Shown piece after piece: positions 18,359-31,425 of a stretch of 32,499 nucleotides of DNA (its first letter is position 1; each line of letters opens with the position of its first letter). Under the pieces are notes generated by a model. That model was given only the letters and a program-made list of their open reading frames with translations, did not search any database and had not been told where the DNA came from. Made by a program: the position numbers and the translations under genes. Source of the stretch: an uncultured Muribaculaceae bacterium. Its GTDB lineage: Bacteria; Bacillota_I; Bacilli_A; RF39; UBA660. The stretch covers positions 1 to 32,499 of the forward strand of contig CAZKBC010000001.1 in the NCBI GenBank assembly GCA_964551265.1. The letters run 5' to 3'.

Positions 18359-20365
18359 ATGTATGAAGATTTAAAGGTATTAAAGAGAGATAACAAAAAG
18401 GCTGATTTTAATGGTGAGAAAATAGCAATTGCAATAAAGAAATCTTTTGATAGCAGAGAAGAATTCATAGATAAGTATACTGATGAAGATATCAATAAAG
18501 TATATAAAGCTGTACTAGATGATATATTTGATAATTATTTTGAAAAACCATATATTAAAGTTGAAGACATACAAGATGTAATAGAAAAGATTCTCATTAA
18601 ACTAGATTATAAGGATGTTTATGAGTCTTTTTCTAACTATAGAGATAAGAGAGCAGAATCAAGAAAAATGTTCTTATCTGAGCCTAAACAACACAAATTA
18701 TTAAAAGCAATAGAAAAGATAACATTAAAACAGGATTGGGTTAAAAAAACTAATACTACACCAAATGATGTTATATTTAATTATGGGAATATTATTTCTG
18801 AAGAATTTGCAAATGCATATTTATTAAATAGTAAATATACTCAGATGCAAGAAAGTGGACAAGTATATATAGATAATATAGAATCTATTTCTATAGGAAC
18901 AACAGAGTCATGCATTATAGATATTAACAAAATATTAGAAAAAGGATTTAGTATAGAAAATATTCACTATAAAGAGCCAAACGACATGTTGTCATATTTA
19001 GACTTAATGTCCTTGATAATAAAGAGAAATTCTGAAGATCAACATGGAGATCAAGGTATTCAAAGTTTAGATTTTATGATGAAACAAATTGTTATTAATA
19101 CATTCAAAGAAATATTTAATGATAAGTTATATGAACATCTAGATGTAAATGGATATTTAAATTTTGTAGATTTTGATTCTATTTCAAAAGATATTTCAAA
19201 ATTAAATTCTATTAATATAGATATAAGTTTATTTTATAAATATTCTAAAGAAGTACCTCAAATAAAAAACATATTAGAGAAATCATACAATAAATCTTTA
19301 GAATCAACTGATAAAATTGTTTATAAAGCATTATATAAATTCTTACATAATTCGTACTATAAGGTAAATGATAAATGTAGAATAGTTACTATTTCTTTAG
19401 GAATTGACACTTCATATGAAGGAAGAATGATTACTAGAAATTATTTATTATCTTTAGATGATAAAGTAGTAACTAAGACAGTATTTAAAATAAAAAAAGG
19501 TATAAACTATAATGTGACAGATATTAATTACGATTTATTTAAATTAGCGATATCCATAATATTTAAAGGCAATAATATAGGATTTTCTTTTATGGATTTT
19601 AAACCAAATTTTAAAGAATATAATGGTTCTTTGGAATCAGAAGTATTTTATTTTAATAATGGTTTAAGAGTAATGGAAAACATATTAAACGAAAAAGTTA
19701 ATGTTTTAGGAAGGGGATTATTATCAAAAACATATATTAATCTTGCTAGAATTGGATTAAAGAATACTAATCAAGAAGAAAATAAAGAAGAATTATTCTC
19801 AGAAATTGATAATACTTTGAATACCGTTATAGAACAATTATACGATAGATATTTAATACAAGCAGAAAGGAAAGCTTCTGAATTTCAATTTTTAATGGGT
19901 GAGAATGTTTACTTTGAATCTAAAGGTCTAAAACAAGGGGAAAAAGTAAAGAAATCTATTAGAAATGGTTTACTTGGTATTGGCATTATTGGTCTTAATG
20001 AATGTATAAAGGTATTAAAGTTTAAAATAACTAGTGATGAGATTATAGATTATATTTATAAAAAAATACATAAATATAAAAATGAGTATAACCTAAATTA
20101 TGTACTTATTGGACCAGATAAAGATTTATCAAAAGAATTCATAGATATCGATAGAGCTATATATGGAGATATTAAAGATGTAACAGATAAAGAATACTAT
20201 GATTTATATTTTAATAATATATTTGAAGATAAGAATATTACTAAATTTAATGGCGGATATTTGATTGAAAAAGAAAATACATTTAAATCGGAGGAAGAAT
20301 TAATAAAGTTTATTAAAGATCAAGATATTGGATATATAAGTATAATAAAAAAAATTGAAGATTAA
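18359..20365 (+). CDS. ATP-cone-containing NrdD (class III ribonucleotide reductase)-like protein lacking catalytic Cys and the glycyl-radical C-terminus (probable pseudoenzyme)
   Basis: ATP-cone: VLKRDNKKADFNGEKIAIAIKKS…VEDIQDVIEKILIKLDYKDVYESFSNYRDKR. NrdD-core blocks: ESCIIDINKILEKGF, VTISLGIDTSYEGRMI, GRGLLSKTYINLARIGL, VTDKEYY. The G-C-R thiyl position reads G-L-R (19661-19669). The protein ends at …DIGYISIIKKIED with no CxxC…CxxC and no RVCGY. It has only 3 Cys in total. Confidence 0.7.
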   Translation: MYEDLKVLKRDNKKADFNGEKIAIAIKKSFDSREEFIDKYTDEDINKVYKAVLDDIFDNYFEKPYIKVEDIQDVIEKILIKLDYKDVYESFSNYRDKRAESRKMFLSEPKQHKLLKAIEKITLKQDWVKKTNTTPNDVIFNYGNIISEEFANAYLLNSKYTQMQESGQVYIDNIESISIGTTESCIIDINKILEKGFSIENIHYKEPNDMLSYLDLMSLIIKRNSEDQHGDQGIQSLDFMMKQIVINTFKEIFNDKLYEHLDVNGYLNFVDFDSISKDISKLNSINIDISLFYKYSKEVPQIKNILEKSYNKSLESTDKIVYKALYKFLHNSYYKVNDKCRIVTISLGIDTSYEGRMITRNYLLSLDDKVVTKTVFKIKKGINYNVTDINYDLFKLAISIIFKGNNIGFSFMDFKPNFKEYNGSLESEVFYFNNGLRVMENILNEKVNVLGRGLLSKTYINLARIGLKNTNQEENKEELFSEIDNTLNTVIEQLYDRYLIQAERKASEFQFLMGENVYFESKGLKQGEKVKKSIRNGLLGIGIIGLNECIKVLKFKITSDEIIDYIYKKIHKYKNEYNLNYVLIGPDKDLSKEFIDIDRAIYGDIKDVTDKEYYDLYFNNIFEDKNITKFNGGYLIEKENTFKSEEELIKFIKDQDIGYISIIKKIED

Positions 20366-20375
20366 TTCAATTTTT

Positions 20376-21272
20376 TTATTTAAATAATTTTTTAGGATAT
20401 ATTCCTTTTGTTATAAGATTCTTTATTTCATTTACTACTATTTCTTTATCCTCTTTATATGTTATACCTATCCATTTAGCAGGTGTTTTTATTACTGCGA
20501 TATTAACCAATTTTTTTTGTAACATTTCATTCATTACTTCTGGTATTAAATATTCAATCTTATCAATCTTATCAATATTATTATTGAAATAATCAAATAT
20601 ATTATTTTCTAAATATTCAAATAACTTAGGAGTAAATGTAATCATATTCATTGATACTAATGTATCAAAATCAACTTCAACTTTTCTTTCATCTACAAGA
20701 GCTTTTGCTACATATCCAGTATCATTTTTTTCAATATTACTTTCAACTAACTCTATTAGTTTGTTTTTATCTCTAATACAAACTCCTCTTTTAACTGAAC
20801 CGCTCTCTGTTACAGTGTTTCCTAAAATATAACCCGCTATAGCAAAATCATTCTTTGATTTATCTATGAAATTACTTAGTAGTTCAAATGATTCTTTTCC
20901 ATAAAAGTCATCAGCATTTATTATTGTAAAATTCTCTTTTATTACATCTTTACTACAATATATTGCGTGTGCAGTACCTAGTGGTTTTGTTCTATCCTTT
21001 GGAATAGATACTTTTTTTGATATATTATCATTCTTTTGAAATACATAATGAACTTCTACTATTTTTTCAATGTCCTTACCAACTTTTTCTTTAAATAATT
21101 CAAAGTTCTCTTCTTTAATAATAAAAACGATTTTATTATATCCCGCTTTTATAGCGTCGTATATTGAATAATGAATAATAAACTCTCCATTAGGTCCAAC
21201 AGGTTCTATTTGTTTTAAACCGCCAAACCTACTGCCCATTCCAGCAGCTAATATAAGTAATGTTTTTTTCAT
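20376..21272 (-). CDS. Sugar-phosphate nucleotidyltransferase (NTP_transferase fold)
   Basis: The N-terminal LILAAGMGSRFGG.KQ is the G-x-G-[ST]-R pyrophosphorylase signature. RBS AAAGGAGG. It converges on the NrdD-like gene with only 10 nt between the stop codons. Confidence 0.7.
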   Translation of the reverse strand: MKKTLLILAAGMGSRFGGLKQIEPVGPNGEFIIHYSIYDAIKAGYNKIVFIIKEENFELFKEKVGKDIEKIVEVHYVFQKNDNISKKVSIPKDRTKPLGTAHAIYCSKDVIKENFTIINADDFYGKESFELLSNFIDKSKNDFAIAGYILGNTVTESGSVKRGVCIRDKNKLIELVESNIEKNDTGYVAKALVDERKVEVDFDTLVSMNMITFTPKLFEYLENNIFDYFNNNIDKIDKIEYLIPEVMNEMLQKKLVNIAVIKTPAKWIGITYKEDKEIVVNEIKNLITKGIYPKKLFK

Positions 21273-21326
21273 ATGTCCTCCTTTAATTATGATATCACAA
21301 ATATATTAAATGTCTACAATCAAATC

Positions 21327-21347
21327 TTTTTAACAAATTGTTAAAAA
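21327..21347. promoter_or_regulatory. Perfect 21-bp palindrome (10-1-10), candidate operator
   Basis: TTTTTAACAA-A-TTGTTAAAAA, ending 4 nt upstream of the -35 hexamer of the NAD operon promoter. Confidence 0.5.
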
Positions 21348-21351
21348 CATA

Positions 21352-21380
21352 TTGACAAATTGATGTGTTATTAATATAAT
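21352..21380 (+). promoter_or_regulatory. Consensus sigma-A promoter of the NAD salvage operon
   Basis: TTGACA (21352-21357), exactly 17 nt, then TATAAT (21375-21380). An AAGGAGG RBS precedes the pncA ATG at 21422. Confidence 0.8.
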
Positions 21381-21390
21381 GTTAATAACA
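21366..21390. promoter_or_regulatory. Perfect 9-7-9 inverted repeat straddling the -10 box, candidate operator
   Basis: TGTTATTAA (21366-21374), TATAATG, then TTAATAACA (21382-21390). It shares the TGTTA/TAACA core with the upstream palindrome. Confidence 0.5.
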
Positions 21391-21421
21391 GAAAGAAAAT
21401 TATTCTAAAAAAGGAGGATAT

Positions 21422-22021
21422 ATGAAAAAGAATTTAGAAGAATTTAAGAAATTGCTTATTATTGTAGACATGGTTAATGGTTTTGTAAGGGAAGGAAAAA
21501 TGTCTGATAAAAAAATTGAAGAAATTATTCCAGAACAACTTAGACTAATCGATCAATTTTTATTAGATAAAGAAGGAATAGCTTTTATTAAAGATACTCA
21601 TAATAATGGATGCAAAGAGTTTGATAGATATCCAGAACATTGTGTTAATGGAACATCTGAATCAGAATTAGTAGACGAATTAAAAGAGTATGAAGATAAC
21701 TCGTTTGTATATACAAAAAATTCAACAAGTACTATGTATGCCCCTAAGTTTATTGATGATATTAATAAGATGAAATCTCTTAGGGAAATAATTATTGCGG
21801 GATGTTGTACAGATATATGTGTCTTAAATCTTGCAATACCTCTTCAAAATTATTTTGATCAAGAAGATAGAAGAGTAGATATAATCGTTCCTACTAATGC
21901 AGTTGAAACTTATGGAGCAGATTATCATAATAGGGATGAATACAATGATATGGCATTTAAATTGATGAATCAAGCAGGAATTAAATTAGTTAAAAGATAT
22001 GGAGGAAATAATGGAAAATAA
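21422..22021 (+). CDS. pncA: Nicotinamidase (isochorismatase/cysteine-hydrolase family)
   Basis: LLIIVDMVNGF (catalytic Asp region) and IIIAGCCTDICVLN (catalytic Cys in the G..TD.CV motif). First gene of the NAD operon. Confidence 0.8.
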   Translation: MKKNLEEFKKLLIIVDMVNGFVREGKMSDKKIEEIIPEQLRLIDQFLLDKEGIAFIKDTHNNGCKEFDRYPEHCVNGTSESELVDELKEYEDNSFVYTKNSTSTMYAPKFIDDINKMKSLREIIIAGCCTDICVLNLAIPLQNYFDQEDRRVDIIVPTNAVETYGADYHNRDEYNDMAFKLMNQAGIKLVKRYGGNNGK

Positions 22022-23462
22022 TACAATGATGACAGATTTTTATGAGCTTACTATGGCACAAACATATTTTGATAAAGGAGAAAAAGATAGAAAGGTTTAC
22101 TTTGATGTATTTTATAGGTCTAACCCCTTTAATGGAGGATATGCAATATCTGGAGGATTAGATAACATTGTTGAATATATAAATAATTTCAAAATCTCAG
22201 AAGATAATATAAAATACTTAAGAAACTTAGGAATATTCAAAGAAGACTTTTTAACATATTTAAAAGATTTAAAATTTAATGGAGATATTTTTGCAATACC
22301 TGATGGTACTCCAATATTTCCAAATGAACCAATTATAACTGTAAGAGCAAATGTTATAGAAGCTCAAATAATAGAAACTGCACTTCTAACAAATTTTAAT
22401 CACGGAACTTTAGTAACTACAGCTTCAAAAAGAATTACTGAAGCAGCTAAAGGTATTCCTGTTATGGAATTTGGAGCAAGAAGAGCAAGGGGAATAGAAT
22501 CCGCAATTGAAGCTAGTAAATATGCATATATTGGTGGGTGTACAGGAACAAGTAATGTATTAAGTGGAATGAAATATAATATACCAGTAATGGGAACAAT
22601 GGCACACAGTATTGTAAGTGATGCAGATACTGAATATGAAGCGTTCTTAGATTATGCTAAGAGCAATCCCAATAATTGTTTATTTTTAGTGGATACATAC
22701 GATACATTAAAAAGTGGAGTCCCTAACGCTATTAAAGTTGCAAAAGATTATTTAATACCCAATGGTTTAAAATTTAAAGGTATAAGAATAGATAGTGGAG
22801 ACTTAGCTTATCTTTCTAAAGAGGCAAGAAAAATGTTGGATGAAGCTGGTTTTTTAGATACCAAGATTACTTTATCAAATAGTTTAAATGAAGAAGTAAT
22901 CAAATCATTAATTGACCAAGATGCAAAATTTGACTCTTTAGGAGTTGGAGATAATATATCTGCCTCTAAAGAAAGAGTTGGAGGAGTATATAAATTAGTG
23001 GCAATTGAAAAAGATAACACAATAGTGCCAAGAATAAAAGTAAGCGATGACACAATAAAAACAACCAATCCTGGATATAAAAAAGTAATTAGGTTTTTTG
23101 ATAAAGAATCAGGATATGCTCTTGGAGATGTAATTGCATTACATAATGAAACTATTCCTACTGATCAATATACTTTAATTAATCCTATTGAAGAATGGAA
23201 ACAAAAAACAATTAACAACTATGATGCTAAAAATATGATGATACCTATTTATATAAATGGAAAACAAGTATATAATGTTCCTAGTGTTAAAGATAGAAAA
23301 TCTTACTGTAATCAACAATTTGATACAATATATCCAGAGATAAAAAGAAGTTCTAATCCTCATGAATATTATGTAGACTTATCTAAAGACTTATTAGAGT
23401 TAAAGAAAAGATTAATACAAGAGAGTATTAGTTCTAGACCAAAAATAAAGGAATTAAAATGA
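22011..23462 (+). CDS. pncB: Nicotinate phosphoribosyltransferase
   Basis: MMTDFYELTMAQTYF…, …VMEFGARRARG…, and GTMAHS (phospho-His region). The likely start is ATG 22011, 5 nt after GGAGG (22001-22005). The track start 21999 is an alternative. Confidence 0.9.
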   Translation: MENNTMMTDFYELTMAQTYFDKGEKDRKVYFDVFYRSNPFNGGYAISGGLDNIVEYINNFKISEDNIKYLRNLGIFKEDFLTYLKDLKFNGDIFAIPDGTPIFPNEPIITVRANVIEAQIIETALLTNFNHGTLVTTASKRITEAAKGIPVMEFGARRARGIESAIEASKYAYIGGCTGTSNVLSGMKYNIPVMGTMAHSIVSDADTEYEAFLDYAKSNPNNCLFLVDTYDTLKSGVPNAIKVAKDYLIPNGLKFKGIRIDSGDLAYLSKEARKMLDEAGFLDTKITLSNSLNEEVIKSLIDQDAKFDSLGVGDNISASKERVGGVYKLVAIEKDNTIVPRIKVSDDTIKTTNPGYKKVIRFFDKESGYALGDVIALHNETIPTDQYTLINPIEEWKQKTINNYDAKNMMIPIYINGKQVYNVPSVKDRKSYCNQQFDTIYPEIKRSSNPHEYYVDLSKDLLELKKRLIQESISSRPKIKELK

Positions 23463-24058
23463 TTAGAAAAGAAAAGTTAGAATTAATCAAATTGTTTTAT
23501 GAAGAATTAAAAACAAAAGAAATAACGAGAGTAAATAATACAAGTTTTATTACAAGCGAAAAATATAAAATTACTTTAAATAATGGTAAAATCATTTATA
23601 GAGAGAAAATATTTAAAAGTAACAAAGATGGAAGTGCTTCTATAATTCTTCCAGTAACAAAAGAGGGAGAAATAGTTACTGTTGTTGAACCTAGAGTGTT
23701 TACTAAAGATACAGTAGCGGTAGGGTTTCCATCTGGATATATAGAAGAAAATGAAGAACCACTTAAAGGTGCTATAAGAGAACTTAAAGAAGAAACTGGT
23801 TATGTATCTGATAAATGGATAAATATAGATTCTTATTATCAAGATGAAGGATGTAGTGGTGCATATAATTATAGCTTTATAGCGTTTGATTCAGAAAAGA
23901 AATTTGAACAGAAGTTAGATCAAGATGAACTAGTTAGATATATTCTATTAAATTATGATGAATTATTTGAACTAGAAAGAATAGGATATATATCAGGAGC
24001 TAATTCAAAATTAACACTTAATAAATCTATTCCATATATGAAAGGGAGGAAAATATGA
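23459..24058 (+). CDS. Nudix hydrolase, probable ADP-ribose pyrophosphatase
   Basis: Intact Nudix box GYIEENEEPLKGAIRELKEETGY (23735-23803) = G-x5-E-x7-R-E-x-x-E-E-x-G. ATGA overlaps occur at both ends, with pncB and with nadE. Confidence 0.75.
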   Translation: MIRKEKLELIKLFYEELKTKEITRVNNTSFITSEKYKITLNNGKIIYREKIFKSNKDGSASIILPVTKEGEIVTVVEPRVFTKDTVAVGFPSGYIEENEEPLKGAIRELKEETGYVSDKWINIDSYYQDEGCSGAYNYSFIAFDSEKKFEQKLDQDELVRYILLNYDELFELERIGYISGANSKLTLNKSIPYMKGRKI

Positions 24059-24810
24059 AATTTGATGCAATGAAAGAAAAAAATAATGTAGTAAACTTTA
24101 TCAAGGACTATTATAACAAACACAACTTAGGTGGAGCTGTAATAGGTATTAGTGGAGGTAAAGATTCTGGAGTTGTTGCAGGATTATTTGTAGAAGCTTT
24201 AGGAAAAGAGAATGTAATAGGATTTACATTACCATGTCATTCAAAAGATGAAGATAGAAAACACGCTAAGTTAGTAAGTGATTACTATGGATTTAAATTA
24301 TATAACTTTGACTTAACAAATGTATTTGATTCATTTAAAGAAGAATTAACCGATATGATTGAAGTTGATTCAAAAGATACATTAAATAGTGATATTAATT
24401 TAAAACCAAGACTAAGAATGTCTACTATGTACTATATGGCAGCATTATTCTCTAGTATTAATAAAAAAACATATTTAGTAGCGGGTACTTCTAACAAGAG
24501 TGAATTATTTGTTGGATATTTCACAAAAGGAGGAGACTCAGTATATGACATATCACCTCTAGCCGACTTTACTGTTGATGAAGTAATAGAAATTGGAAAA
24601 GTATTAAACGTTCCAAAAGAAGTATTATTTAAAACTCCATCTGATGGATTATCTTCTTTATCTGATGAAGATAAGTTAGGAGTTAAATATAAAGATATAG
24701 CAAGTTATATGGAAGATCCTTTTTCAGTTGATGAAGAAATAGGTAAAAAAATTCAAAAATTACACGATAATAATGCACATAAGTTTAACCTACCAACTTA
24801 TAGGAGGTAA
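24055..24810 (+). CDS. nadE: NH3-dependent NAD+ synthetase
   Basis: PP-loop GISGGKDSGVVA. ~250 aa with no glutaminase domain. …GTSNKSELFVGYFTKGGD…. Confidence 0.9.
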   Translation: MKFDAMKEKNNVVNFIKDYYNKHNLGGAVIGISGGKDSGVVAGLFVEALGKENVIGFTLPCHSKDEDRKHAKLVSDYYGFKLYNFDLTNVFDSFKEELTDMIEVDSKDTLNSDINLKPRLRMSTMYYMAALFSSINKKTYLVAGTSNKSELFVGYFTKGGDSVYDISPLADFTVDEVIEIGKVLNVPKEVLFKTPSDGLSSLSDEDKLGVKYKDIASYMEDPFSVDEEIGKKIQKLHDNNAHKFNLPTYRR

Positions 24811-24811
24811 T

Positions 24812-25375
24812 ATGAAAACGGGAGTTTATGTAGGAAGTTTTAATCCAGTACATAAAGGACACATAAAAGTAATAAACCATTTATTAATTAATAATATAGT
24901 AGATAAAGTAATTGTAATACCAACTAAAAACTATTGGGATAAGAACAACTTAATAGATATAAATGATCGGATCAATATGTTAAAGATATATGAAAATAAT
25001 AAAATAATTATAAATACTAATTTAAATGAATTACAATATACTTACCAAGTATTAGATGAATTAAAAAAAGAATATAAAGATCTATATTTAATAATTGGAG
25101 ATGACAATCTAATTAGTTTTGATAAGTGGAAAAATGTAGATGAAATATTAAAAAACAAAGTTATTGTAATGAAAAGAAACAATATAAATTTAAATCAATA
25201 CATAGAAAAGTTTACTAATAAAGATAGTTTTATTATAGTAAATGATTATGTACCGTTAGACATTTCCTCAACTCAAATTAGAAAATTAATTACTAATTGT
25301 GAAACAAAAGACTTAGAAAATTATTTGGATAAAAAGGTGTTAGATTATATATTGAAAAACAATCTTTATCAATAA
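24812..25375 (+). CDS. nadD: Nicotinate-nucleotide adenylyltransferase
   Basis: The real start is ATG 24812 (MKTGVYVGSFNPVHKGH), 5 nt after the AGGAGG at 24802-24807. It has the (H/T)xGH motif and a C-terminal ISSTQIR motif. Confidence 0.9.
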   Translation: MKTGVYVGSFNPVHKGHIKVINHLLINNIVDKVIVIPTKNYWDKNNLIDINDRINMLKIYENNKIIINTNLNELQYTYQVLDELKKEYKDLYLIIGDDNLISFDKWKNVDEILKNKVIVMKRNNINLNQYIEKFTNKDSFIIVNDYVPLDISSTQIRKLITNCETKDLENYLDKKVLDYILKNNLYQ

Positions 25376-25378
25376 AGT

Positions 25379-26065
25379 ATGGATATAATGAAGAAGATAA
25401 TAAAAGACTTTAAGCTAATTGAATGGATTATGATACTTTCTGTAATAATATTTACAATATACTTTGCTATTACTGATAAAACTAGTCCTACTTGGTATTT
25501 GATAATAAACTCTATCGCAGCTATATCTGGAATATTCTGTGTAGTACTATGTGCAAAAGGAAGAAAAAGCCAATATATATGGGGACTACTAAATATAGTT
25601 GGTTATGTAATAATAGCGTATATAAATAAATACTATGGAGAAGTAATGTTAAATGCATTATATTATTTACCTTCTCAGTTCATAGGTTATTATTTATGGA
25701 ACAAAAACATGAGTAAAGATAAAAAGACAGTAAGTAGCAAGAAACTTAATTTTAAGCAAACAATATTATTCTTAGTAGTGTGTGTAATAGGTATATATCT
25801 ATATAAGTTATCCTTAGACTTACTTGGGGGAAAAAATACAATTCTTGATAGTGAATCAACATTTATTTCATTATTTGCAAATATATTAATGTTAGCAAGA
25901 TATAGAGAACAGTGGTTATTATGGATAATTATTGATATAATAACAGTAGTAATGTGGTTATTAGTTAATGACTTAATAATGGTTACTATGTGGTCAGTAT
26001 ATTTAATAAATGCTTTCTATGGATATTATAATTGGAGTAAAATGTATGAAAGATCAAATGTTTAA
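25379..26065 (+). CDS. pnuC: Nicotinamide riboside transporter PnuC
   Basis: ~225 aa polytopic membrane protein with Trp-rich TM helices (…QYIWGLLNIVGYVIIAY…, …WLLWIIIDIITVVMWLL…). It sits directly upstream of nadR, as is typical for pnuC. Confidence 0.8.
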   Translation: MDIMKKIIKDFKLIEWIMILSVIIFTIYFAITDKTSPTWYLIINSIAAISGIFCVVLCAKGRKSQYIWGLLNIVGYVIIAYINKYYGEVMLNALYYLPSQFIGYYLWNKNMSKDKKTVSSKKLNFKQTILFLVVCVIGIYLYKLSLDLLGGKNTILDSESTFISLFANILMLARYREQWLLWIIIDIITVVMWLLVNDLIMVTMWSVYLINAFYGYYNWSKMYERSNV

Positions 26066-27083
26066 AGTTGGTATGTATGGAGGATCTTTTGATCCTCCTC
26101 ACATGGGCCATTTTCACGACATAATAAGAGCTTCATCTATGTGTGAAGAATTATTTGTAGTAATTAGCTGGTCAGAAAAAAGAGAATCTACAACAAAAGA
26201 ATTAAGATATAGATGGATAAATAATGCTTTCAAACATTTAGATAATATTAAAATATTATTATTACAAGATACCGCTAATAGTAAAGAAGAATATAATGAT
26301 AACTATTGGGAAAAAGGGGCTCTTGAAATTAAAAAAATGATTGGAAAGAAAATCGATGTAGTATTTTGTGGATCTGATTATCGCAAAACAAAAAGATTTG
26401 AAAATCTATATGGTGAAGACAGTGAAATAATATATTTTGAAAGAGAAGAAATACCTATTAGTTCAACAGACATAAGAACTAATGTTTTTAAGCATTGGAA
26501 TTACTTACCTCAAGTATGTAGACCATACTATGTAAAAAAAGTATTGATAGTCGGAGGAGAAAGCACTGGCAAGTCAACTTTAGTAAGAAATTTAGCGATA
26601 GCATACAACACCAATTATGTTAGAGAAGTTGGTAGAGAAACTTGTGATATAGCGGGCAAAGAAGAGTTTATGAATAAAGATGATTTGGTAGAAAACTTAT
26701 TAAGACAAAAAACACTAGAACTTGAAGCATTATATAATAGTAATAAAATATTATTTATTGATACAGACTCTATTACTACTAAGTTCTATTCAAAATTTTT
26801 ATTAAACAATTCTAATGATATAAAAGAATGCAGTAATCTTGCAGATTCTATTACAGCAATTAATAATTTTGATTTAGTTATATTATTAGAACCTACTGTT
26901 AAATTCATTCAAGATGGAACTAGAAACGAAAAGATTAGAAATAATAGAGATAAATATAGTGAGCAATTAAAACAATTATTAATTGAAAGTAAAAAAGAGT
27001 ATATTTCATTATCAGGAACATATTTAGAAAGATTTAATAAAACTAAACAGATAATAAAAGATAAATTTGATATAGATGTATAG
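26046..27083 (+). CDS. nadR: Bifunctional NMN adenylyltransferase / ribosylnicotinamide kinase (NadR type, no HTH domain)
   Basis: The likely start is ATG 26046 (GGAG 8 nt upstream), which overlaps the pnuC 3' end. GGSFDPPHMGH is the nucleotidyltransferase motif. The Walker A GGESTGKSTLVRNLA marks the kinase half. Confidence 0.85.
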   Translation: MKDQMFKVGMYGGSFDPPHMGHFHDIIRASSMCEELFVVISWSEKRESTTKELRYRWINNAFKHLDNIKILLLQDTANSKEEYNDNYWEKGALEIKKMIGKKIDVVFCGSDYRKTKRFENLYGEDSEIIYFEREEIPISSTDIRTNVFKHWNYLPQVCRPYYVKKVLIVGGESTGKSTLVRNLAIAYNTNYVREVGRETCDIAGKEEFMNKDDLVENLLRQKTLELEALYNSNKILFIDTDSITTKFYSKFLLNNSNDIKECSNLADSITAINNFDLVILLEPTVKFIQDGTRNEKIRNNRDKYSEQLKQLLIESKKEYISLSGTYLERFNKTKQIIKDKFDIDV

Positions 27084-27091
27084 GAGTATAT

Positions 27092-27565
27092 ATGAAAGAA
27101 ATAATTGATTATTTAAAAAAGAACAATTTAAGAATATCAACTATGGAATCATGTACTGGAGGATTTATTGCTAATTCTATCACTAATAATGAAGGTTCAA
27201 GTGAAGTTTTTTATTTTGGTGCGGTAACATATTCAAATGAATATAAAATAAAATTAGGTGTTTCAAAAGATATAATAGATAAGTTTACTGTATATAGTAT
27301 TGAAACAGCTAAAGAAATGTCTAAAGCAATATCTATATATACAAATTCTAATTATGGTGTTGGTGTTACTGGTAAAATTAATAAAGTAGATAAGAATAAT
27401 CTTTTTGGAAATAATAATGAAATATATATTAGTATCTATGATACTATTAATAAATCTTTTTATACAAAATCATTATTAACTAAATATAAAGATAGAGAAA
27501 AAAACAAAGAGTATATTTTAGAAAATTTGATTGTTCTGTTTAAAGAGAATATAATGATATCCTAG
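27092..27565 (+). CDS. pncC: CinA C-terminal-domain / PncC nicotinamide-mononucleotide amidohydrolase
   Basis: ISTMESCTGGFIANSIT matches the …T.ESCTGG.la… signature of CinA/PncC. ~157 aa stand-alone domain. Confidence 0.8.
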   Translation: MKEIIDYLKKNNLRISTMESCTGGFIANSITNNEGSSEVFYFGAVTYSNEYKIKLGVSKDIIDKFTVYSIETAKEMSKAISIYTNSNYGVGVTGKINKVDKNNLFGNNNEIYISIYDTINKSFYTKSLLTKYKDREKNKEYILENLIVLFKENIMIS

Positions 27566-27578
27566 GAAAGAGGTATAT

Positions 27579-29573
27579 ATGAAAGAACTTGAAGCCTTAA
27601 AAAATAGAACTAATGAAAATTGGATTAATTACTTAGTTAAAACAAAAGAGAAAAACTTTAATTATGAAAGAATAAATTCATTAACTGAATTATCAAACAA
27701 ATTAGTATATAACTATGTATTAAATTCTTTTGAAGTATTAGAAACAAATAAAGTAGATGAAAAAGTATATTATTATGTTTCTGAAACTTTAAAGTGGATG
27801 GAAGTAGCAAAAGCTGGTTCTAGTAAGGATAGAAAAAAATGGACTGTAAATAATTATGATTTATATGTTCATAATATAGGTTCTTCAGAAATATATTGCT
27901 CTGAAAATGAGAACTATGATGAAGTTGTAAGGGTATTAATTAAAACTCATGGACTAATAGGTCAATATATAAGAGGGGAAGTCAACTTAAATAAAAATAA
28001 AGAATTATATGATTTAATAGAAAAAAAATTAATTACAAAAGAATTGCTTAAAGAAGTATTAATAGTATTAAATGAATGTGTTGTAAAACCAGTATCAGAT
28101 GATTTATATGAATCTATAAAAAAAGAAATAGTAATTGCAATTGAGAAAATTATTAACAATGATTTTGAAGAGGATATAGATTTATTAGATAGATTAAAAA
28201 AAATTAATAAACATTTAAACGAAGAAGATTTAATATTGATAGAAGACAATAATATTAAAAAGGCATTAAAAAAAGTATTTGATAATCTTGAACTTTGGTA
28301 TTATGAAGGAGCTTTAAAGAATTTCAGTTTTGAAGAAAGAATTAAAGTATTATTATATATTTCTAATAGTATTAGTTTTAATGATAACCATTTAACATTT
28401 GAAAAATTAATGAAAAGTATATATTTTGATTACAAAGGTAAAAAAATTGTTAATATATATAAAAAAAGAATTATAGAAAGTATGCTAAGTGAATTAAGTT
28501 TTGAAGATATAATTAATAATAATATTAAAACTAATCCTCATATAAGATTTAATTTAAAAAGAACATCAAATACGATGTTGTTTAATTTTGTCTTTTCTAT
28601 TCAAGCTACTAAATTAATAGAGTTTTGTGAAGTAGCGTACACTAGTAATTCCCTATATAATAAAGCTGTTTATATGTTATATGACTTATTTGGTTTTAGA
28701 AGAGATAGATATGATAGATTTTATAATGAAGTAAATTACTTAAATACAATGAATGCATCTACTCACAATAAAAAAATATTGATAGATTTTATAGTAGGAA
28801 AAAACGTATTAGATGTTGGACCTGGTGGAGGAGCATTATTAAACTTAATTGAAGAATCTAATAATAAATATAATGTATTTGGAATTGATATATCAGAGAA
28901 TGTAATAGAAGAATTAGCTAGGAAAAAAGAAATAGAAAATAGGAAATGGAAAATAGTAAAAGGTGATGCTTTATATTTAGAAAAACATTTTGAAAAAGAT
29001 AGCATAGATACCATTATCTATTCATCTATAATACATGAATTATATTCATATACAAATTATAATGGTAAGAAATTTAATATAGATACAGTAATAAAAACAC
29101 TTCAATCTGCATATAATATAATTCCAAAGGGTGGAAGAATTATTATTAGAGATGGTATTATGACTGAACCTATAGATCAATATAGAATTATTGAATTTAA
29201 TAATATAAAAGATTTAGAAATATTAGATAATTATTGTAATGATTTTAAAGGTAGAAAAATATCATATGAAAAAATAGATGAAAACAAAGTAAAGATGCTT
29301 ATAAATGACGCTATGGAATTTCTTTATACTTATACTTGGGGAGAAAATTCATATTCGCTTGAAGTACAAGAACAATTTGGATATTTAACCCCAACTGAAT
29401 ACATTGAATTAATTGAAACCAATTTAAAAGACTCAAGAGTAATAGAAATAAAGGCATTCTTACAAAGTGGATATGAAGAAAACTTATTAAATAAAATTTC
29501 AATATATAATGAAGATATGAAAGTAGTAAAATTACCAAATAGTACTTGTATAATAGTTATAGAAAGGAATTAA
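27579..29573 (+). CDS. 664-aa fusion: unrecognised ~390-aa N-terminal domain + class I SAM-dependent methyltransferase
   Basis: Motif I is VLDVGPGGGALL (28806-28841). Further motifs are an acidic residue after beta-2 (VFGIDISE), GDAL, DTIIYSSIIHELYSY and GGRIIIRDG. The N-terminal half contains …YVHNIGSSEIY…LIKTHGLIGQYIRGE…, which is faintly HDIG-like but not assignable. Confidence 0.55.
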   Translation: MKELEALKNRTNENWINYLVKTKEKNFNYERINSLTELSNKLVYNYVLNSFEVLETNKVDEKVYYYVSETLKWMEVAKAGSSKDRKKWTVNNYDLYVHNIGSSEIYCSENENYDEVVRVLIKTHGLIGQYIRGEVNLNKNKELYDLIEKKLITKELLKEVLIVLNECVVKPVSDDLYESIKKEIVIAIEKIINNDFEEDIDLLDRLKKINKHLNEEDLILIEDNNIKKALKKVFDNLELWYYEGALKNFSFEERIKVLLYISNSISFNDNHLTFEKLMKSIYFDYKGKKIVNIYKKRIIESMLSELSFEDIINNNIKTNPHIRFNLKRTSNTMLFNFVFSIQATKLIEFCEVAYTSNSLYNKAVYMLYDLFGFRRDRYDRFYNEVNYLNTMNASTHNKKILIDFIVGKNVLDVGPGGGALLNLIEESNNKYNVFGIDISENVIEELARKKEIENRKWKIVKGDALYLEKHFEKDSIDTIIYSSIIHELYSYTNYNGKKFNIDTVIKTLQSAYNIIPKGGRIIIRDGIMTEPIDQYRIIEFNNIKDLEILDNYCNDFKGRKISYEKIDENKVKMLINDAMEFLYTYTWGENSYSLEVQEQFGYLTPTEYIELIETNLKDSRVIEIKAFLQSGYEENLLNKISIYNEDMKVVKLPNSTCIIVIERN

Positions 29574-29574
29574 T

Positions 29575-30390
29575 ATGAAGTATAAAAATGAAAAAGAATT
29601 TTTAAAAGCATATAATCCAAATGAATATGAAAAATTGTCAATGACAGTAGATATTGTTATTTTTAGTGTTTCAAGTGGAGAAAAAGAAAATTATAGAAAA
29701 CTTAATAATAAATATTTCTCTGTGCTATTGGTTAAAAGAGATGATTATCCTTTTAAAGATAAATGGTGCTTACCAGGTGGATTTATAAAAATTGATGAGA
29801 ACTTAGATGAAGCTCCAAAAAGAATATTGAAAAATGAAACGAATCTAAAAGATATATATATGGAACAACTATATACATTTGGAGAAATAAATAGAGATCC
29901 TAGAATGAGAATAGTAAGTACATCATATTTAGCGTTAATAGATAAAAAAGAATTAAAGGAAGAATTAGTTAATAATGCATCTTGGTTTAATATTAATTTT
30001 AAAGAAGATGAAAAAAGAATTATAATTACATTAAATAACGAGAAAGAAAACTTTACAATAAAAATTAAAAAAACACTATATGAAAGAACTACTGATAGAT
30101 ATAAGTATACTATAGAAGAAGACAATAATTTAGCGTTTGATCACGCTATAGTAATAGCTTCTGGTATATCTAGATTAAAGAATAAATTAGAATATACTGA
30201 TATTGTGTTTAATATGATGCCTGATGAATTTACCTTAGGAGAATTACAACAAGTATATGAAGTTATATTAGGAAGAAAATTATTGGATCCTGCATTTAGA
30301 AGAATCATTGCTAATAAAGTTGAAAAAACTGGTAATATGAAAACAGGTGGAGGACATAGACCATCAGTCTTATTTAGATACAAGAGATAA
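29575..30390 (+). CDS. nrtR: NrtR-family Nudix-related transcriptional regulator of NAD metabolism
   Basis: The N-terminal Nudix fold has a degenerate box (GGFIKIDENLDEAPKRILKNETNL; the REx2EE glutamates are partly lost). The C-terminal winged-helix segment FTLGELQQVYEVILGRKLLDPAFRRII (30229-30309) matches the NrtR F-T-L..LQ..YE.ILG…FRR signature. It starts 1 nt after the previous stop. Confidence 0.8.
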   Translation: MKYKNEKEFLKAYNPNEYEKLSMTVDIVIFSVSSGEKENYRKLNNKYFSVLLVKRDDYPFKDKWCLPGGFIKIDENLDEAPKRILKNETNLKDIYMEQLYTFGEINRDPRMRIVSTSYLALIDKKELKEELVNNASWFNINFKEDEKRIIITLNNEKENFTIKIKKTLYERTTDRYKYTIEEDNNLAFDHAIVIASGISRLKNKLEYTDIVFNMMPDEFTLGELQQVYEVILGRKLLDPAFRRIIANKVEKTGNMKTGGGHRPSVLFRYKR

Positions 30391-30413
30391 AGTTTAGTTA
30401 TATTAAGTGAATC

Positions 30414-30447
30414 CAAAAAAACAAACTTATTTAAGTTTGTTCTCTTC
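30414..30447. terminator. Hairpin terminator between convergent nrtR and the 191-aa gene
   Basis: AACAAACTT (30420-30428), an ATTT loop, then AAGTTTGTT (30433-30441). The A6 run on the left gives a clean U-tract for the minus-strand transcript. The right flank, CTCTTCTATT, is only T-rich. Confidence 0.65.
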
Positions 30448-30470
30448 TATTAATTATATTTTTTTGTTTT

Positions 30471-31046
30471 CTATGCAATTACTTTCTTTAGAGTTTTAAC
30501 CAATTTTTCTTGTAAAACCGGTCTTGCAAACTTATCTTCTAAGCTTAATATACTATTCATGTATCTATCATAGGCTTTATCATATTCTTGATTTTCTATT
30601 GCAACAACACAATAATCAACAACATTATCATATATATAATCATATACTATATTTTTATATTCATTATTATCTATTGCTTCTACTATAAGGGGAGCAGTTA
30701 CATAGTAATGTTCTACATTATTTTTTGAAACAAAATTATCTCTAAACCATCTAAGAACTTTTAGTTCATAGCAATTATCATCAAAATTATTTGAATAATG
30801 TTTCATACATGCAGATGTTATATAACAACCCCCAGATGATTTCTCGTTTTCTCCATTAACATTATCAATTGAATCCCAAGTTCCCTTTTCGTAGTCAACT
30901 TTTACATGAATTGATTTGTGATCTTTTTCTGAAGGATCTTTGTCATAAAAATCTATTTTGCTTCCTTTATCGCCATCATATCCATTTATTTTGATAAACA
31001 TTCCCTTTTCGTTTTCATATCCTTTACCACGAGGACCATTTCCCAT
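30471..31046 (-). CDS. 191-aa protein: Gly/Asp/Lys-rich N-terminal ~70 aa + conserved Cys-motif domain of unknown function
   Basis: The motif C-Y-I-T-S-A-C-x11-C-Y-E-L-x2-L-R-W-F-R-D (aa 74-103; nt 30738-30827) is followed by YYVTAPLIVEAI. It resembles a widespread uncharacterised C[FY]I[TA]TA…C.EL..LR.FRD module that I recognise but cannot name. Confidence 0.5.
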   Translation of the reverse strand: MGNGPRGKGYENEKGMFIKINGYDGDKGSKIDFYDKDPSEKDHKSIHVKVDYEKGTWDSIDNVNGENEKSSGGCYITSACMKHYSNNFDDNCYELKVLRWFRDNFVSKNNVEHYYVTAPLIVEAIDNNEYKNIVYDYIYDNVVDYCVVAIENQEYDKAYDRYMNSILSLEDKFARPVLQEKLVKTLKKVIA

Positions 31047-31053
31047 ATTATTT

Positions 31054-31425
31054 TTATCCTTTCATTTCTAGTTGTGTTTTTCTTAAATACATTATTATTT
31101 CATACCATATAACTATTTCATCAGCTAATTCGCTTTCTTCTCCCATTTTTAAATCAAATAAACATTTTTCTTTTAGTTTATCTAATTTGTAGTAAACATC
31201 AAGAAGAGGGACCTGGTTTATTAATGACAAATCTTTTTTAATTTCGTATTCTGCAGCCCAATTAAGGATAATAGAAAACAATTCTATATATTCCGAACGA
31301 ATCTCTTTATAGGAGTCTAATACTGTTACAATTGAGAGCGGACCAAGTAAACGAGTAAAAGCCAAGGATATGTTGTGTTTTGATAGATTATTTGTATCAA
31401 ACCCTATATCTTTTTCTTTTTTCAT
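31054..31425 (-). CDS. 123-aa hypothetical protein, co-transcribed upstream partner of the Cys-motif protein
   Basis: Strong RBS AAGGTGGTGAGG. It ends 7 nt before the next start. Predicted helical, with no motifs recognised. Confidence 0.5.
   Translation of the reverse strand: MKKEKDIGFDTNNLSKHNISLAFTRLLGPLSIVTVLDSYKEIRSEYIELFSIILNWAAEYEIKKDLSLINQVPLLDVYYKLDKLKEKCLFDLKMGEESELADEIVIWYEIIMYLRKTQLEMKG

What the first reader, a model, noticed from the sequence alone, without database searches (positions are those of the whole stretch)
27579..29573. Uncharacterised 664-aa protein (unknown domain + SAM methyltransferase) embedded in the NrtR-controlled NAD operon
Nine of the ten operon genes have textbook NAD salvage or regulatory roles. 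The gaps on either side of this gene are 13 nt and 1 nt, so it is co-expressed with them. Its C-terminal half is a clear class I methyltransferase (VLDVGPGGGALL, 28806-28841). The ~390-aa N-terminal half matches nothing I recognise beyond a faint HDIG-like stretch (YVHNIGSS…THGLIGQ). Guilt by association predicts a pyridine-nucleotide-related activity not yet assigned in bacteria. Examples would be N-methylation of nicotinamide or nicotinate (trigonelline-type detoxification or overflow), or modification of an NAD-derived metabolite.
Basis: partly seen in the sequence, partly recalled or inferred. Interest (0 to 1): 0.65.

Follow-up and report, generated by a model that had tools for sequence, protein, structure and literature searches.

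The report
Uncharacterised methyltransferase in NAD operons
A real 664-residue enzyme joins a protein domain of unknown fold to a methyl-transfer domain; it sits inside NAD (vitamin B3 cofactor) operons in many bacteria, which points to a methylation step in bacterial NAD or ADP-ribose metabolism that nobody has described.

Summary
ORF 27579-29573 (+) encodes 664 aa. It is the ninth gene of a ten-gene operon (pncA-pncB-nudix-nadE-nadD-pnuC-nadR-pncC-X-nrtR) behind one perfect promoter with an overlapping palindrome.

The protein is catalogued but unstudied. It matches NCBIfam NF005379/PRK06922 over its full length, and that model carries only the name 'class I SAM-dependent methyltransferase'.

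Residues 1-345 give a confident model (pLDDT 93) with no Pfam, PDB-sequence or Foldseek relative. The 'HDIG-like' hint is not supported. In 1.84 billion representative proteins this domain has only 231 hits. In every full-length hit examined it precedes this methyltransferase.

The NAD link is strong:
- 57 of 80 genome loci carry NAD or ADP-ribose genes within 10 kb, in about ten different gene orders.
- A distant candidate-phyla relative lies inside a nadCAB-nadE-pncBA-nrtR-nadD cluster.
- Fusions exist to NadD, to an ADP-ribose-type Nudix, and to HAD plus NAPRTase.

The link is not universal. Paenibacillus copies and Bacillus cereus-group plasmid copies lie elsewhere.

The best reading is a SAM-dependent methyltransferase acting on a small NAD-related metabolite. 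The substrate is unknown, and nicotinate/nicotinamide N-methylation is only one option. The finding is interesting and directly testable.

The parts
21352..21380 (+). Operon promoter, TTGACA-17 nt-TATAAT (12 of 12 matches)
   Evidence: It is the only perfect match in 20300-31200. It lies 42 nt upstream of the pncA start.
21366..21390 (.). 25-bp palindrome TGTTATTAATAT-A-ATGTTAATAACA overlapping the -10 box. Candidate NrtR operator. It contains the 11-bp palindrome TGTTAATAACA at 21380-21390.
   Evidence: TGTTAnTAACA occurs 21 times in 1.43 Mb of related loci against 4.4 expected, mostly 20-85 nt upstream of the first gene of MT-containing NAD operons. Binding by NrtR is inferred, not tested.
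21422..22021 (+). pncA-like nicotinamidase (isochorismatase family)
   Evidence: PF00857, E 6.5e-22.
21999..23462 (+). pncB, nicotinate phosphoribosyltransferase
   Evidence: NF006695, 620 bits, above the cut-off of 469.
23459..24058 (+). Nudix hydrolase, NudE/ADP-ribose-pyrophosphatase-like
   Evidence: PF00293; best NCBIfam match is NudE, E 5.7e-12, below the cut-off.
24055..24810 (+). nadE, NAD synthetase
   Evidence: TIGR00552, 175 bits, above the cut-off of 63.65.
24773..25375 (+). nadD, nicotinate-mononucleotide adenylyltransferase
   Evidence: TIGR00482, 116.8 bits, above the cut-off of 112.45.
25379..26065 (+). pnuC, nicotinamide riboside transporter
   Evidence: TIGR01528, 138 bits, above the cut-off of 42.45.
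26010..27083 (+). nadR-type NMN adenylyltransferase plus ribosylnicotinamide kinase, without the HTH domain
   Evidence: CTP_transf_like plus AAA_28; TIGR01526 216 bits, below its cut-off of 341.
27092..27565 (+). pncC/CinA-domain NMN deamidase-like gene
   Evidence: TIGR00199, 80.5 bits, above the cut-off of 68.9.
27579..29573 (+). The 664-aa protein, member of NCBIfam NF005379/PRK06922
   Evidence: 698 bits against a cut-off of 602; residues 12-663 match positions 19-676 of the 677-position model.
27579..28613 (+). N-terminal domain of unrecognised fold, residues 1-345. Residues 1-236 are helical and residues 237-345 form a small alpha/beta subdomain. Residues K78, R85, W88, H98, N99, H124, G125, G128, Q129, R132, G133, E134, W240, E243 and K256 are invariant across the superfamily.
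   Evidence: AF2 model pLDDT 93.1, pTM 0.91. No Pfam hit in any of 33 members. No PDB relative by sequence profile. Foldseek best E is 1.2 against PDB and 0.09 against BFVD.
28614..28790 (+). Helical linker, residues 346-404, with conserved FGFRRD.YDRFYNE..YL..MN. This is the least confident part of the full-length model.
   Evidence: pLDDT 45-69 at residues 350-400; D379, Y387, M391 and K398 invariant.
28791..29573 (+). Class I SAM methyltransferase core plus conserved C-terminal lid, residues 405-664. Conserved elements: motif I VLDVGPGGG (nt 28806-28841), D437, GDA 462-464, SxxHE 483-487, RD 524-525, and lid NDAMEFLYTYTWGE...E..EQFGY.
   Evidence: Pfam; Foldseek probability 1.0 to YcgJ, NovO/CouO, DnrK, PhzM and others; invariant residues.
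29575..30390 (+). nrtR, Nudix-related ADP-ribose-responsive repressor. Last gene of the operon.
   Evidence: PF21906 NrtR_WHD, E 8.4e-18, plus NUDIX. NF050029, E 6.5e-48 (below its cut-off). The genes downstream are on the opposite strand.

Best explanation
The gene encodes a two-module enzyme of the uncharacterised NF005379/PRK06922 family. A ~345-residue N-terminal domain of unrecognised fold is joined by a helical linker to an intact class I SAM-dependent methyltransferase with its own conserved C-terminal lid. It is transcribed with the NAD salvage and synthesis genes from one promoter, probably repressed by NrtR and released when ADP-ribose signals NAD consumption. I propose that it methylates a small NAD-related metabolite. 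Candidates are a pyridine carboxylate or amide (nicotinate, nicotinamide), a deamidated pyridine nucleotide (NaMN, NaAD), NAD(P) itself, or an ADP-ribose derivative. The N-terminal domain would supply substrate or nucleotide binding through its invariant Lys/Arg/His/Asn/Gln/Glu/Trp cluster. Shown here: the architecture, the intact SAM-binding motifs, operon membership, recurrent synteny and gene fusions with NAD enzymes, and the obligate pairing of the two modules in every full-length hit examined. Inferred: catalytic activity, the class of substrate, the role of the N-domain, and NrtR control.
For: The protein is a full-length member of a strongly conserved family: 875 or more close homologues and 64% mean column identity. 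SAM-binding residues are invariant down to 21% identity: G416, G418, D437, S483, H486, E487, R524, D525. Nearest structures to the MT module are small-molecule O-, N- and C-methyltransferases. Both modules are neutral to acidic, with median pI 6.3 and 5.3, which is unlike most nucleic-acid MTases. For synteny, 52 of 80 loci have an NAD-related gene within four genes and 57 of 80 within 10 kb. NrtR is present in 40, pncB in 23, pncA in 21, NAD-kinase-like in 21, nadD in 17, pncC in 16, nadE in 15 and nadK in 12, across about ten gene orders in Bacilli, Clostridia and Acholeplasmataceae. In an independent phylum, Gottesmanbacteria P0273 (~26% identity) lies in nadC-nadA-nadB-x-[MT]-nadE-...-NAPRTase-like-pncA-nrtR-nadD. 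Fusions: NadD-MT as a single 848-aa ORF in L037; NadM-type ADPR Nudix plus N-domain plus MT, seen in two samples (P0245); HAD plus N-domain plus MT plus NAPRTase N-terminus (P0258). A Nudix gene lies directly upstream of P0255 and of the B. mycoides plasmid copy. A perfect promoter with an overlapping palindrome heads the window's operon, and the core motif is 5-fold enriched at the heads of homologous operons. The N-domain gave only 231 hits in 1.84e9 representatives. In all 20 long hits checked, MT motifs follow it or the protein is cut short.
Against: No assay, no metabolite data and no expression data exist; only DNA runs hold this sequence. At 664 aa with a 345-aa accessory domain, the protein is large for an enzyme acting on a small pyridine. 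23 of 80 loci, mostly Paenibacillus, show no NAD gene within 10 kb. Bacillus cereus-group copies lie on megaplasmids among cas3, Fic, Cas6, RtcB and HNH genes. Three of the distant relatives examined sit among housekeeping genes. Methylating a salvage intermediate while NrtR derepression calls for more NAD is not obviously useful. The L037 fusion rests on one metagenome-assembled contig.
Confidence: 0.55

Rival explanations
1. It is specifically a nicotinate or nicotinamide N-methyltransferase, making trigonelline or 1-methylnicotinamide as overflow or detoxification.
For: pncA and pncB, which produce and consume nicotinate, are among the commonest neighbours. An NAPRTase fusion exists (P0258). 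Clostridial loci add NAD-consuming ART-type genes that release nicotinamide, namely KptA and DUF4291. PhzM, an N-methyltransferase of an aromatic N-heterocyclic carboxylate, is among the structural neighbours.
Against: There is no similarity to the NNMT/PNMT family. The match to the plant-type O-MT family PF00891 is below threshold at 18.8 bits against 22.3. The protein is far larger than known pyridine N-MTases. The associations with nadD, nadE, nadK, Nudix and Macro do not single out the free bases. PncA in the same operon already removes nicotinamide. Diverting nicotinate while the regulon is derepressed to make NAD looks counter-productive. [quoted passage not shown]
Confidence: 0.15
2. 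It methylates a macromolecule: an RNA end, an NAD- or ADP-ribose-modified RNA, or a protein. It would be part of NAD-consuming repair or conflict modules. The NAD genes would be neighbours only because those modules drain NAD.
For: The large accessory domain is typical of macromolecule recognition. KptA/Tpt1 RNA 2'-phosphotransferase, Macro, the ART-like DUF4291 and a domain annotated 'ADP-ribosylation/crystallin J1' lie next to it or are fused to it in Clostridia (DUF4291 as ART-like: PMC12522546). The Bt407 megaplasmid copy lies among cas3, Fic, Cas6 and RtcB. Weak, recurring Foldseek hits link the N-domain to class II CCA-adding and poly(A) polymerase proteins.
Against: Those fold hits are not significant (E >= 0.09, TM <= 0.33). 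Both modules are neutral to acidic. No PADLOC defence model matches the window protein or its Clostridial partners. No phage record carries it. Fusions to NadD, NAPRTase and an ADPR Nudix, and the position between nadB and nadE in a candidate-phyla bacterium, are hard to explain for an RNA or protein methyltransferase. The Hen1 model scores 15 bits against a cut-off of 340.
Confidence: 0.2
3. It is a regulator or sensor and not a metabolic enzyme. The N-domain would bind an NAD-related ligand and the MT fold would bind SAM, and the protein would tune NadD, NadE, NadK or NrtR through contact.
For: It is tightly coupled to nrtR (1-nt gap here; adjacent in many loci). The inter-domain geometry is uncertain: pTM is 0.64 for the whole protein against 0.91 for the N-domain alone.
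Against: All SAM-binding positions and the post-motif-IV and post-motif-V positions that usually line the active site are invariant across phyla. That pattern is expected of a working enzyme. No DNA-binding or known interaction domain is present.
Confidence: 0.05

Closest known systems
NCBIfam NF005379 (PRK06922), 'class I SAM-dependent methyltransferase'
   Same: Full-length match above the curated cut-off: 698 bits against 602, residues 12-663. Bacillus thuringiensis, B. mycoides and B. toyonensis plasmid proteins named by this model are 40-42% identical over 98% of the length.
   Different: The model carries no function. Nothing about the family was found in the searchable literature. The Bacillus cereus-group members are not in NAD operons, whereas this one is.
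Small-molecule class I methyltransferases with solved structures (YcgJ 1xxl, NovO/CouO, DnrK, PhzM, MrsA)
   Same: Rossmann-like SAM-binding core, Foldseek probability 1.0, TM 0.45-0.65 on the target. Pfam Methyltransf_11/12/25/31 motifs are present.
   Different: Sequence identity is only 10-17%. None of them has the 345-aa N-domain or the conserved NDAMEFLYTYTWGE lid, and none is linked to NAD genes.
NrtR regulons of NAD metabolism (Rodionov et al. 2008, PMC2330246)
   Same: The operon ends in an NrtR gene and contains the classic targets pncA, pncB, nadD, nadE, pnuC and nadR. A palindrome overlaps the promoter.
   Different: That study lists no methyltransferase among NrtR targets (0 occurrences of the word). 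The palindrome core here is TGTTAnTAACA (GT-N5-AC), not the published GT-N7-AC core.
Eukaryotic pyridine N-methyltransferases (NNMT; plant nicotinate N-methyltransferase NANMT)
   Same: They are SAM-dependent enzymes acting at the edge of NAD salvage, which is the kind of role proposed here.
   Different: No detectable family relationship: no NNMT_PNMT_TEMT hit, and PF00891 is below threshold. Their size is about 260-360 aa and they are single-module.
HD/HDIG phosphohydrolases such as YqeK, which follows nadD in Bacillus
   Same: They are helical domains with conserved His residues, and YqeK has a nadD-adjacent position. The N-domain here is likewise helical, carries conserved His residues, and its gene often follows nadD.
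   Different: The motif here is H98-N99, not HD. No HD Pfam hit appears in 33 members. hhalign probability to an HD protein is 0.1%. Foldseek E to HD proteins is above 1.

Membership tests
NCBIfam NF005379 / PRK06922 | Whole-protein HMM score at or above the curated cut-off (602 bits) with end-to-end coverage | tested here: met
   698 bits, E 1.3e-209; residues 12-663 match model positions 19-676 of 677.
Class I SAM-dependent methyltransferase | Motif I GxGxG in a Rossmann-like beta1-loop-alphaA | tested here: met
   VLDVGPGGG at residues 410-418. G416 and G418 are invariant across 16 sequences down to 21% identity.
Class I SAM-dependent methyltransferase | Acidic residue at the end of beta2 that binds the SAM ribose, and the seven-strand alpha/beta fold | tested here: met
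   D437 is invariant. The AF2 model has alternating strands and helices over residues 409-540. Foldseek probability is 1.0 to more than 700 solved MTase chains.
Class I SAM-dependent methyltransferase | Methyl transfer from SAM to a substrate | not testable with these tools
   This needs an enzyme assay.
HD / HDIG metal-dependent phosphohydrolase (N-domain) | H...HD...D metal-binding motif and the HD fold | tested here: not met
   The sequence has H98-N99 in place of HD. No HD-family Pfam hit at E <= 5 in any of 33 members. The PDB profile search found nothing. hhalign probability is 0.1%. The best Foldseek HD-type hits have E above 1.
NNMT/PNMT/TEMT nicotinamide N-methyltransferase family (PF01234) | Match to the family profile | tested here: not met
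   The family is absent from the Pfam hits at E <= 0.01.
Plant-type O-/N-methyltransferase family that includes nicotinate N-methyltransferase (PF00891) | Match above the gathering score | tested here: not met
   18.8 bits against a cut-off of 22.3, E 0.0011.
Bacterial Hen1 RNA 3'-terminal 2'-O-methyltransferase (TIGR04074) | Match above the curated cut-off | tested here: not met
   15.4 bits against a cut-off of 340.
NrtR regulon member | Co-location with nrtR and NAD genes, conserved across lineages | tested here: met
   nrtR lies within 10 kb in 40 of 80 loci and in the Gottesmanbacteria locus.
NrtR regulon member | An NrtR operator upstream that binds NrtR and is released by ADP-ribose | tested here: inconclusive
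   A palindrome overlaps the -10 box. Its core is enriched 21 observed against 4.4 expected at homologous operon heads. Its spacing differs from the published GT-N7-AC core. Binding was not tested.
Known anti-phage defence systems (PADLOC-DB 2.0) | Match to any defence-protein model | tested here: not met
   No hit for P0001, the SPFH protein, the NAD-kinase-like protein, the 'LYRPVG' protein or the DUF4291 protein. Only a generic MTase-domain hit (mad2) for the distant P0273.

The most novel reading that the evidence does not exclude
The family catalyses a so far unknown SAM-dependent methylation of a pyridine nucleotide (NaMN, NaAD, NAD or NADP) or of ADP-ribose. This would be a new NrtR-controlled branch or checkpoint of bacterial NAD turnover, conserved from Firmicutes to candidate-phyla bacteria. 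Its N-terminal 345 residues would be a new nucleotide-binding fold dedicated to that substrate.
Probability: 0.3. Interest if true: 0.8.

Novelty: new variant of a known kind. Interest (0 to 1): 0.62.

Why it matters
Bacterial NAD biosynthesis and salvage are regarded as essentially fully mapped, and no methylation step belongs to them. Here a large, strongly conserved enzyme with intact SAM-binding residues sits inside NAD operons in Bacilli, Clostridia and a candidate-phyla bacterium. In separate lineages it is fused to NadD, to an ADP-ribose Nudix and to NAPRTase. That suggests either a missing reaction (modification, inactivation, export form or repair of an NAD-related metabolite) or a missing control layer. 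Cultured carriers exist: Anaerocolumna jejuensis, Anaerotaenia torta, Paenibacillus spp. and Bacillus thuringiensis Bt407. The question can therefore be tested directly with a recombinant enzyme and a panel of about a dozen commercial metabolites. The N-terminal domain also appears to be an undescribed fold.

Tried and rejected
1. HD/HDIG identity of the N-domain: rejected.
2. Any solved-structure relative of the N-domain, by sequence profile or by Foldseek against PDB and BFVD: none significant. The best hits are class II CCA/poly(A) polymerase-like and HD-like, at E 0.09-2.
3. Foldseek with the full-length model: it returned only generic methyltransferases and could not name a substrate class.
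4. Known defence system: no PADLOC hit. No phage copy.
5. Literature on this family, on PRK06922, on bacterial nicotinate methylation and on a methyltransferase in NrtR regulons: nothing relevant.
6. Transcript evidence: only DNA metagenome runs (bioreactor, digester, wastewater) hold the sequence.
9. Identity of the ~120-aa 'LYRPVG' partner domain: no Pfam, NCBIfam or PDB match. Only the source label 'ADP-ribosylation/crystallin J1' was found.
10. The idea that the protein replaces the B. subtilis nadD-yqeK...yqeM pair (HD plus MTase): the HD half is not supported, and the yqeM half was not tested.
Full report

Yes. The ORF at 27579-29573 (+) starts with ATG and gives 664 residues. The upstream pncC-like gene ends at 27565, leaving 13 nt that hold a GAAAGAGG ribosome-binding site. 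nrtR starts at 29575, one base after the TAA stop. The cited motif VLDVGPGGGALL is residues 410-421 (nt 28806-28841), and YVHNIGSS / THGLIGQ are residues 96-103 / 123-129.

Pfam and NCBIfam confirm the nine neighbours as PncA-like isochorismatase, NAPRTase (620 bits), a NudE-like Nudix, NadE, NadD, PnuC, an HTH-less NadR, a PncC domain, and NrtR (Nudix plus NrtR winged helix). The operon is bounded by a divergent nucleotidyltransferase gene upstream and by opposite-strand genes downstream.

The only perfect sigma-70 promoter of the region (TTGACA-17-TATAAT, 21352-21380) lies upstream of pncA. A 25-bp palindrome (21366-21390) overlaps its -10 box. Co-transcription is inferred from this layout. 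No RNA run holds the sequence; the holders are bioreactor, digester and wastewater DNA metagenomes.

**2. What is the protein?**

It is not an orphan. It matches NCBIfam NF005379 (PRK06922) end to end at 698 bits, above the curated 602-bit cut-off. That model is named only 'class I SAM-dependent methyltransferase'. A word-indexed search found 875 homologues among the 8,000 candidates scored, and the best 120 are all 650-700 aa with 56-76% identity. An alignment of 23 of them has 64% mean column identity over the whole length, so all parts are under strong constraint.

AlphaFold2 with that alignment gives pLDDT 87.6 and three parts:
- An N-terminal domain, residues 1-345. Helices run to about residue 236, followed by a small alpha/beta subdomain.
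- A helical linker, residues 346-404, with the lowest confidence.
- A methyltransferase core with a conserved C-terminal lid, residues 405-664.

Foldseek with the whole model returns only small-molecule class I methyltransferases at probability 1.0: YcgJ, NovO/CouO, DnrK, PhzM, MrsA and others.

**3. The N-terminal domain**

Modelled alone from 33 sequences, it reaches pLDDT 93.1 and pTM 0.91. Despite that confidence it has no relative:
- Foldseek's best E is 1.2 in PDB and 0.09 in BFVD.
- No Pfam family is shared among the 33 members even at E <= 5.
- A profile search of all PDB sequences finds nothing.

The motif is H98-N99, not HD, and hhalign against an HD protein gives 0.1% probability.

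A profile search of 1.84 billion representative proteins finds only 231 hits. Most are full-length family members or fragments. In all 20 longer, more distant hits that I scanned, either a methyltransferase domain follows the N-domain or the protein is cut short. The two modules therefore form an obligate unit in every full-length hit examined.

Across an alignment reaching 21% identity, the invariant N-domain residues are K78, R85, W88, H98, N99, H124, G125, G128, Q129, R132, G133, E134, W240, E243 and K256. This basic-plus-aromatic constellation would suit a phosphorylated or aromatic ligand, but that is inference. In the same alignment the SAM-binding and active-site-lining positions are also invariant: G416, G418, D437, S483, H486, E487, R524, D525, E580, W587, E595 and E598. 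That argues for a working enzyme.

**4. Is the NAD link more than this one operon?**

I fetched the 80 best of 340 matching loci from one-genome-per-species contigs. I searched them with the window's NAD proteins and clustered all neighbours.

- 52 of 80 loci have an NAD-related gene within four genes, and 57 of 80 within 10 kb.
- Counts by gene: nrtR in 40, pncB 23, pncA 21, a divergent NAD-kinase-like protein 21, nadD 17, pncC 16, nadE 15, bona fide nadK 12, Macro 8.
- With roughly a dozen NAD genes per genome, chance adjacency would be a few per cent. This is a reasoned estimate, not a computed one.

The gene orders differ widely. Examples:
- pncC-[MT]-nrtR
- nadD-[MT]-pncC-nadK-nrtR
- nadE-nadD-[MT]-nrtR
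- [MT]-nadD-nrtR
- nrtR-[MT]-SPFH-NADK-like
- nrtR-pncA-pncB-Macro-[MT]
- nrtR-pncA-[MT]-recQ
- [MT]-nrtR-pncA-nadE-pncB in one Paenibacillus

This variety speaks for selection on the linkage and against simple inheritance of one operon.

The strongest independent case is a Gottesmanbacteria relative (P0273, 806 aa, ~26% identity). It lies in nadC-nadA-nadB-x-[MT]-nadE-x-x-NAPRTase-like-pncA-nrtR-nadD.

Gene fusions point the same way:
- In L037, NadD runs without a stop codon into the methyltransferase as one 848-aa ORF. This rests on a single MAG.
- P0245, seen in two samples, is a NadM-type ADP-ribose Nudix plus N-domain plus MT.
- P0258 (Omnitrophota, partial) is HAD phosphatase plus N-domain plus MT plus the NAPRTase N-terminus.
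- P0255 and a B. mycoides plasmid copy each have a Nudix gene directly upstream.

The 11-bp palindrome TGTTAnTAACA inside the window's operator-like element occurs 21 times in the loci against 4.4 expected. Most copies lie 20-85 nt upstream of the first gene of MT-containing operons. Its spacing (GT-N5-AC) differs from the published NrtR core GT-N7-AC, so its assignment to NrtR remains an inference.

**5. A second theme: ADP-ribose**

In Clostridia-type loci the gene is flanked by other ADP-ribose-linked genes:
- KptA/Tpt1 RNA 2'-phosphotransferase, DUF4291 and Macro. DUF4291 is predicted to be ART-like in PMC12522546.
- A ~120-aa protein that is either a separate upstream gene or fused to the N-terminus of the methyltransferase. 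This family has at least 7,900 members and no Pfam model. Its sources label it 'ADP-ribosylation/crystallin J1'.
- Directly downstream, in 18 loci, an SPFH/Band-7 protein and a divergent NAD-kinase-like protein.

The family therefore belongs to the wider NAD/ADP-ribose network, not only to pyridine salvage.

**6. Counter-evidence**

- 23 of 80 loci, chiefly Paenibacillus, have no NAD gene within 10 kb.
- Three distant relatives sit among housekeeping genes, and one lies next to a LOG/SLOG-type protein.
- Bacillus cereus-group copies (40-42% identity) are on megaplasmids. In Bt407 the gene lies between cas3' and Fic, near Cas6, DevR and RtcB. In B. mycoides it lies after a MutT-like Nudix and an HNH gene.
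- Bacillus velezensis plasmids carry only the MT-plus-lid half.

These contexts keep a macromolecular or conflict-related role alive. Several results argue against that role: the neutral-to-acidic pI of both modules (medians 6.3 and 5.3), the lack of any PADLOC hit, the absence from 50,697 phage records, and the fusions to NAD enzymes.

**7. Most likely mechanism**

I commit to a SAM-dependent methyltransferase acting on a small NAD-related metabolite. It would be expressed with the NAD regulon when NrtR is released by ADP-ribose, and the N-domain would bind the substrate or a nucleotide (confidence 0.55). Enzymes of the deamidated branch are frequent partners: PncA, PncB, PncC, NadD and NadE handle nicotinate, NaMN and NaAD. 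ADP-ribose-handling proteins are frequent too. I cannot choose among nicotinate or nicotinamide, a pyridine nucleotide, and an ADP-ribose derivative.

It does not explain the size of the protein, the nadK, Nudix and Macro links, or the redundancy with PncA.
- A macromolecular substrate gets 0.2.
- A non-catalytic regulator gets 0.05.

**8. Novelty**

The methyltransferase fold is ordinary and the family is catalogued. The N-domain has no recognisable relative. No function is assigned. The held literature, including the founding NrtR regulon paper, which never mentions a methyltransferase, says nothing about it.

Earlier notes of this scan on other genomes reached the same reading; I used them only as leads. 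I rate the finding a new variant of a known kind, with interest 0.62. It would surprise an NAD-metabolism specialist and it is directly testable.

Noticed in passing
L034 9568-9936 (standalone); N-terminal extensions of the MT gene in L031, L035, L038, L054, L060, L065, L066: A ~120-aa domain (LYRPVGIRELELIKQSGM..FPPRLPEQPIFYPVLN..YA.QIA.EWN) has at least 7,900 homologues and no Pfam, NCBIfam or PDB match. Its sources label it 'ADP-ribosylation/crystallin J1'. It is either the gene just upstream of the methyltransferase or fused to its N-terminus.
   Followed up: partly
18 loci, e.g. L052 7102-8118 and L068 13032-13973: A fixed pair lies directly downstream of the methyltransferase in Clostridia-type loci: an SPFH/Band-7 protein and a divergent NAD-kinase-like protein. 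The second has only weak NCBIfam NAD kinase hits (E ~1e-5) and no Pfam hit. Their function is unknown.
   Followed up: partly
window 21366-21390 and 21324-21350; heads of operons in L002, L004, L005, L008, L013, L015, L018, L020, L051, L067: The 11-bp palindrome TGTTAnTAACA is about 5-fold enriched and sits just upstream of NAD operons. Its spacing is GT-N5-AC, not the published NrtR core GT-N7-AC. The window has a second palindrome, ATCTTTTTAACAA/TTGTTAAAAACAT, 30 nt further upstream.
   Followed up: partly
L082 9933-11748; L084 1085-2895: A radical-SAM protein (292 aa) and a 311-aa aminotransferase-like protein form a pair. The pair lies next to the Nudix-N-domain-MT fusion, and again upstream of nadC in the Gottesmanbacteria NAD cluster.
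   Followed up: no
L001, L002, L017, L018, L067 (titled Muribaculaceae); L003 (Dojkabacteria); L027 (Bacteroides helcogenes): Contigs with Firmicute-type NAD operons closely related to the window carry Bacteroidota or candidate-phyla MAG titles. These are probably mis-binned contigs or mislabelled records.
   Followed up: no
window 26010-26065: pnuC (25379-26065) and nadR, as called from its first ATG (26010), overlap by 56 nt. The true nadR start may be further downstream.
   Followed up: no
L091 5968-6792 (Bacillus velezensis plasmid): A stand-alone 274-aa protein corresponds to residues ~387-663 only (MT core plus lid, 41% identity). It lies on a plasmid among hypothetical genes. The catalytic half therefore also exists without the N-domain.
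   Followed up: no
L090 (B. thuringiensis Bt407 plasmid BTB_502p, record 440810-442846): A full-length homologue in a cultured, tractable strain lies between cas3' and a Fic gene, near Cas6, DevR and RtcB. This context is quite unlike the NAD operons.
   Followed up: partly
L017 1346-1900, L018 9381-9926; L009 4387-4890, L023 7745-8236: Further small conserved neighbours appear in some Bacilli-type loci: a DUF5662 protein directly upstream of the MT, and a small PRTase-like protein between pncC and nadK.
   Followed up: no
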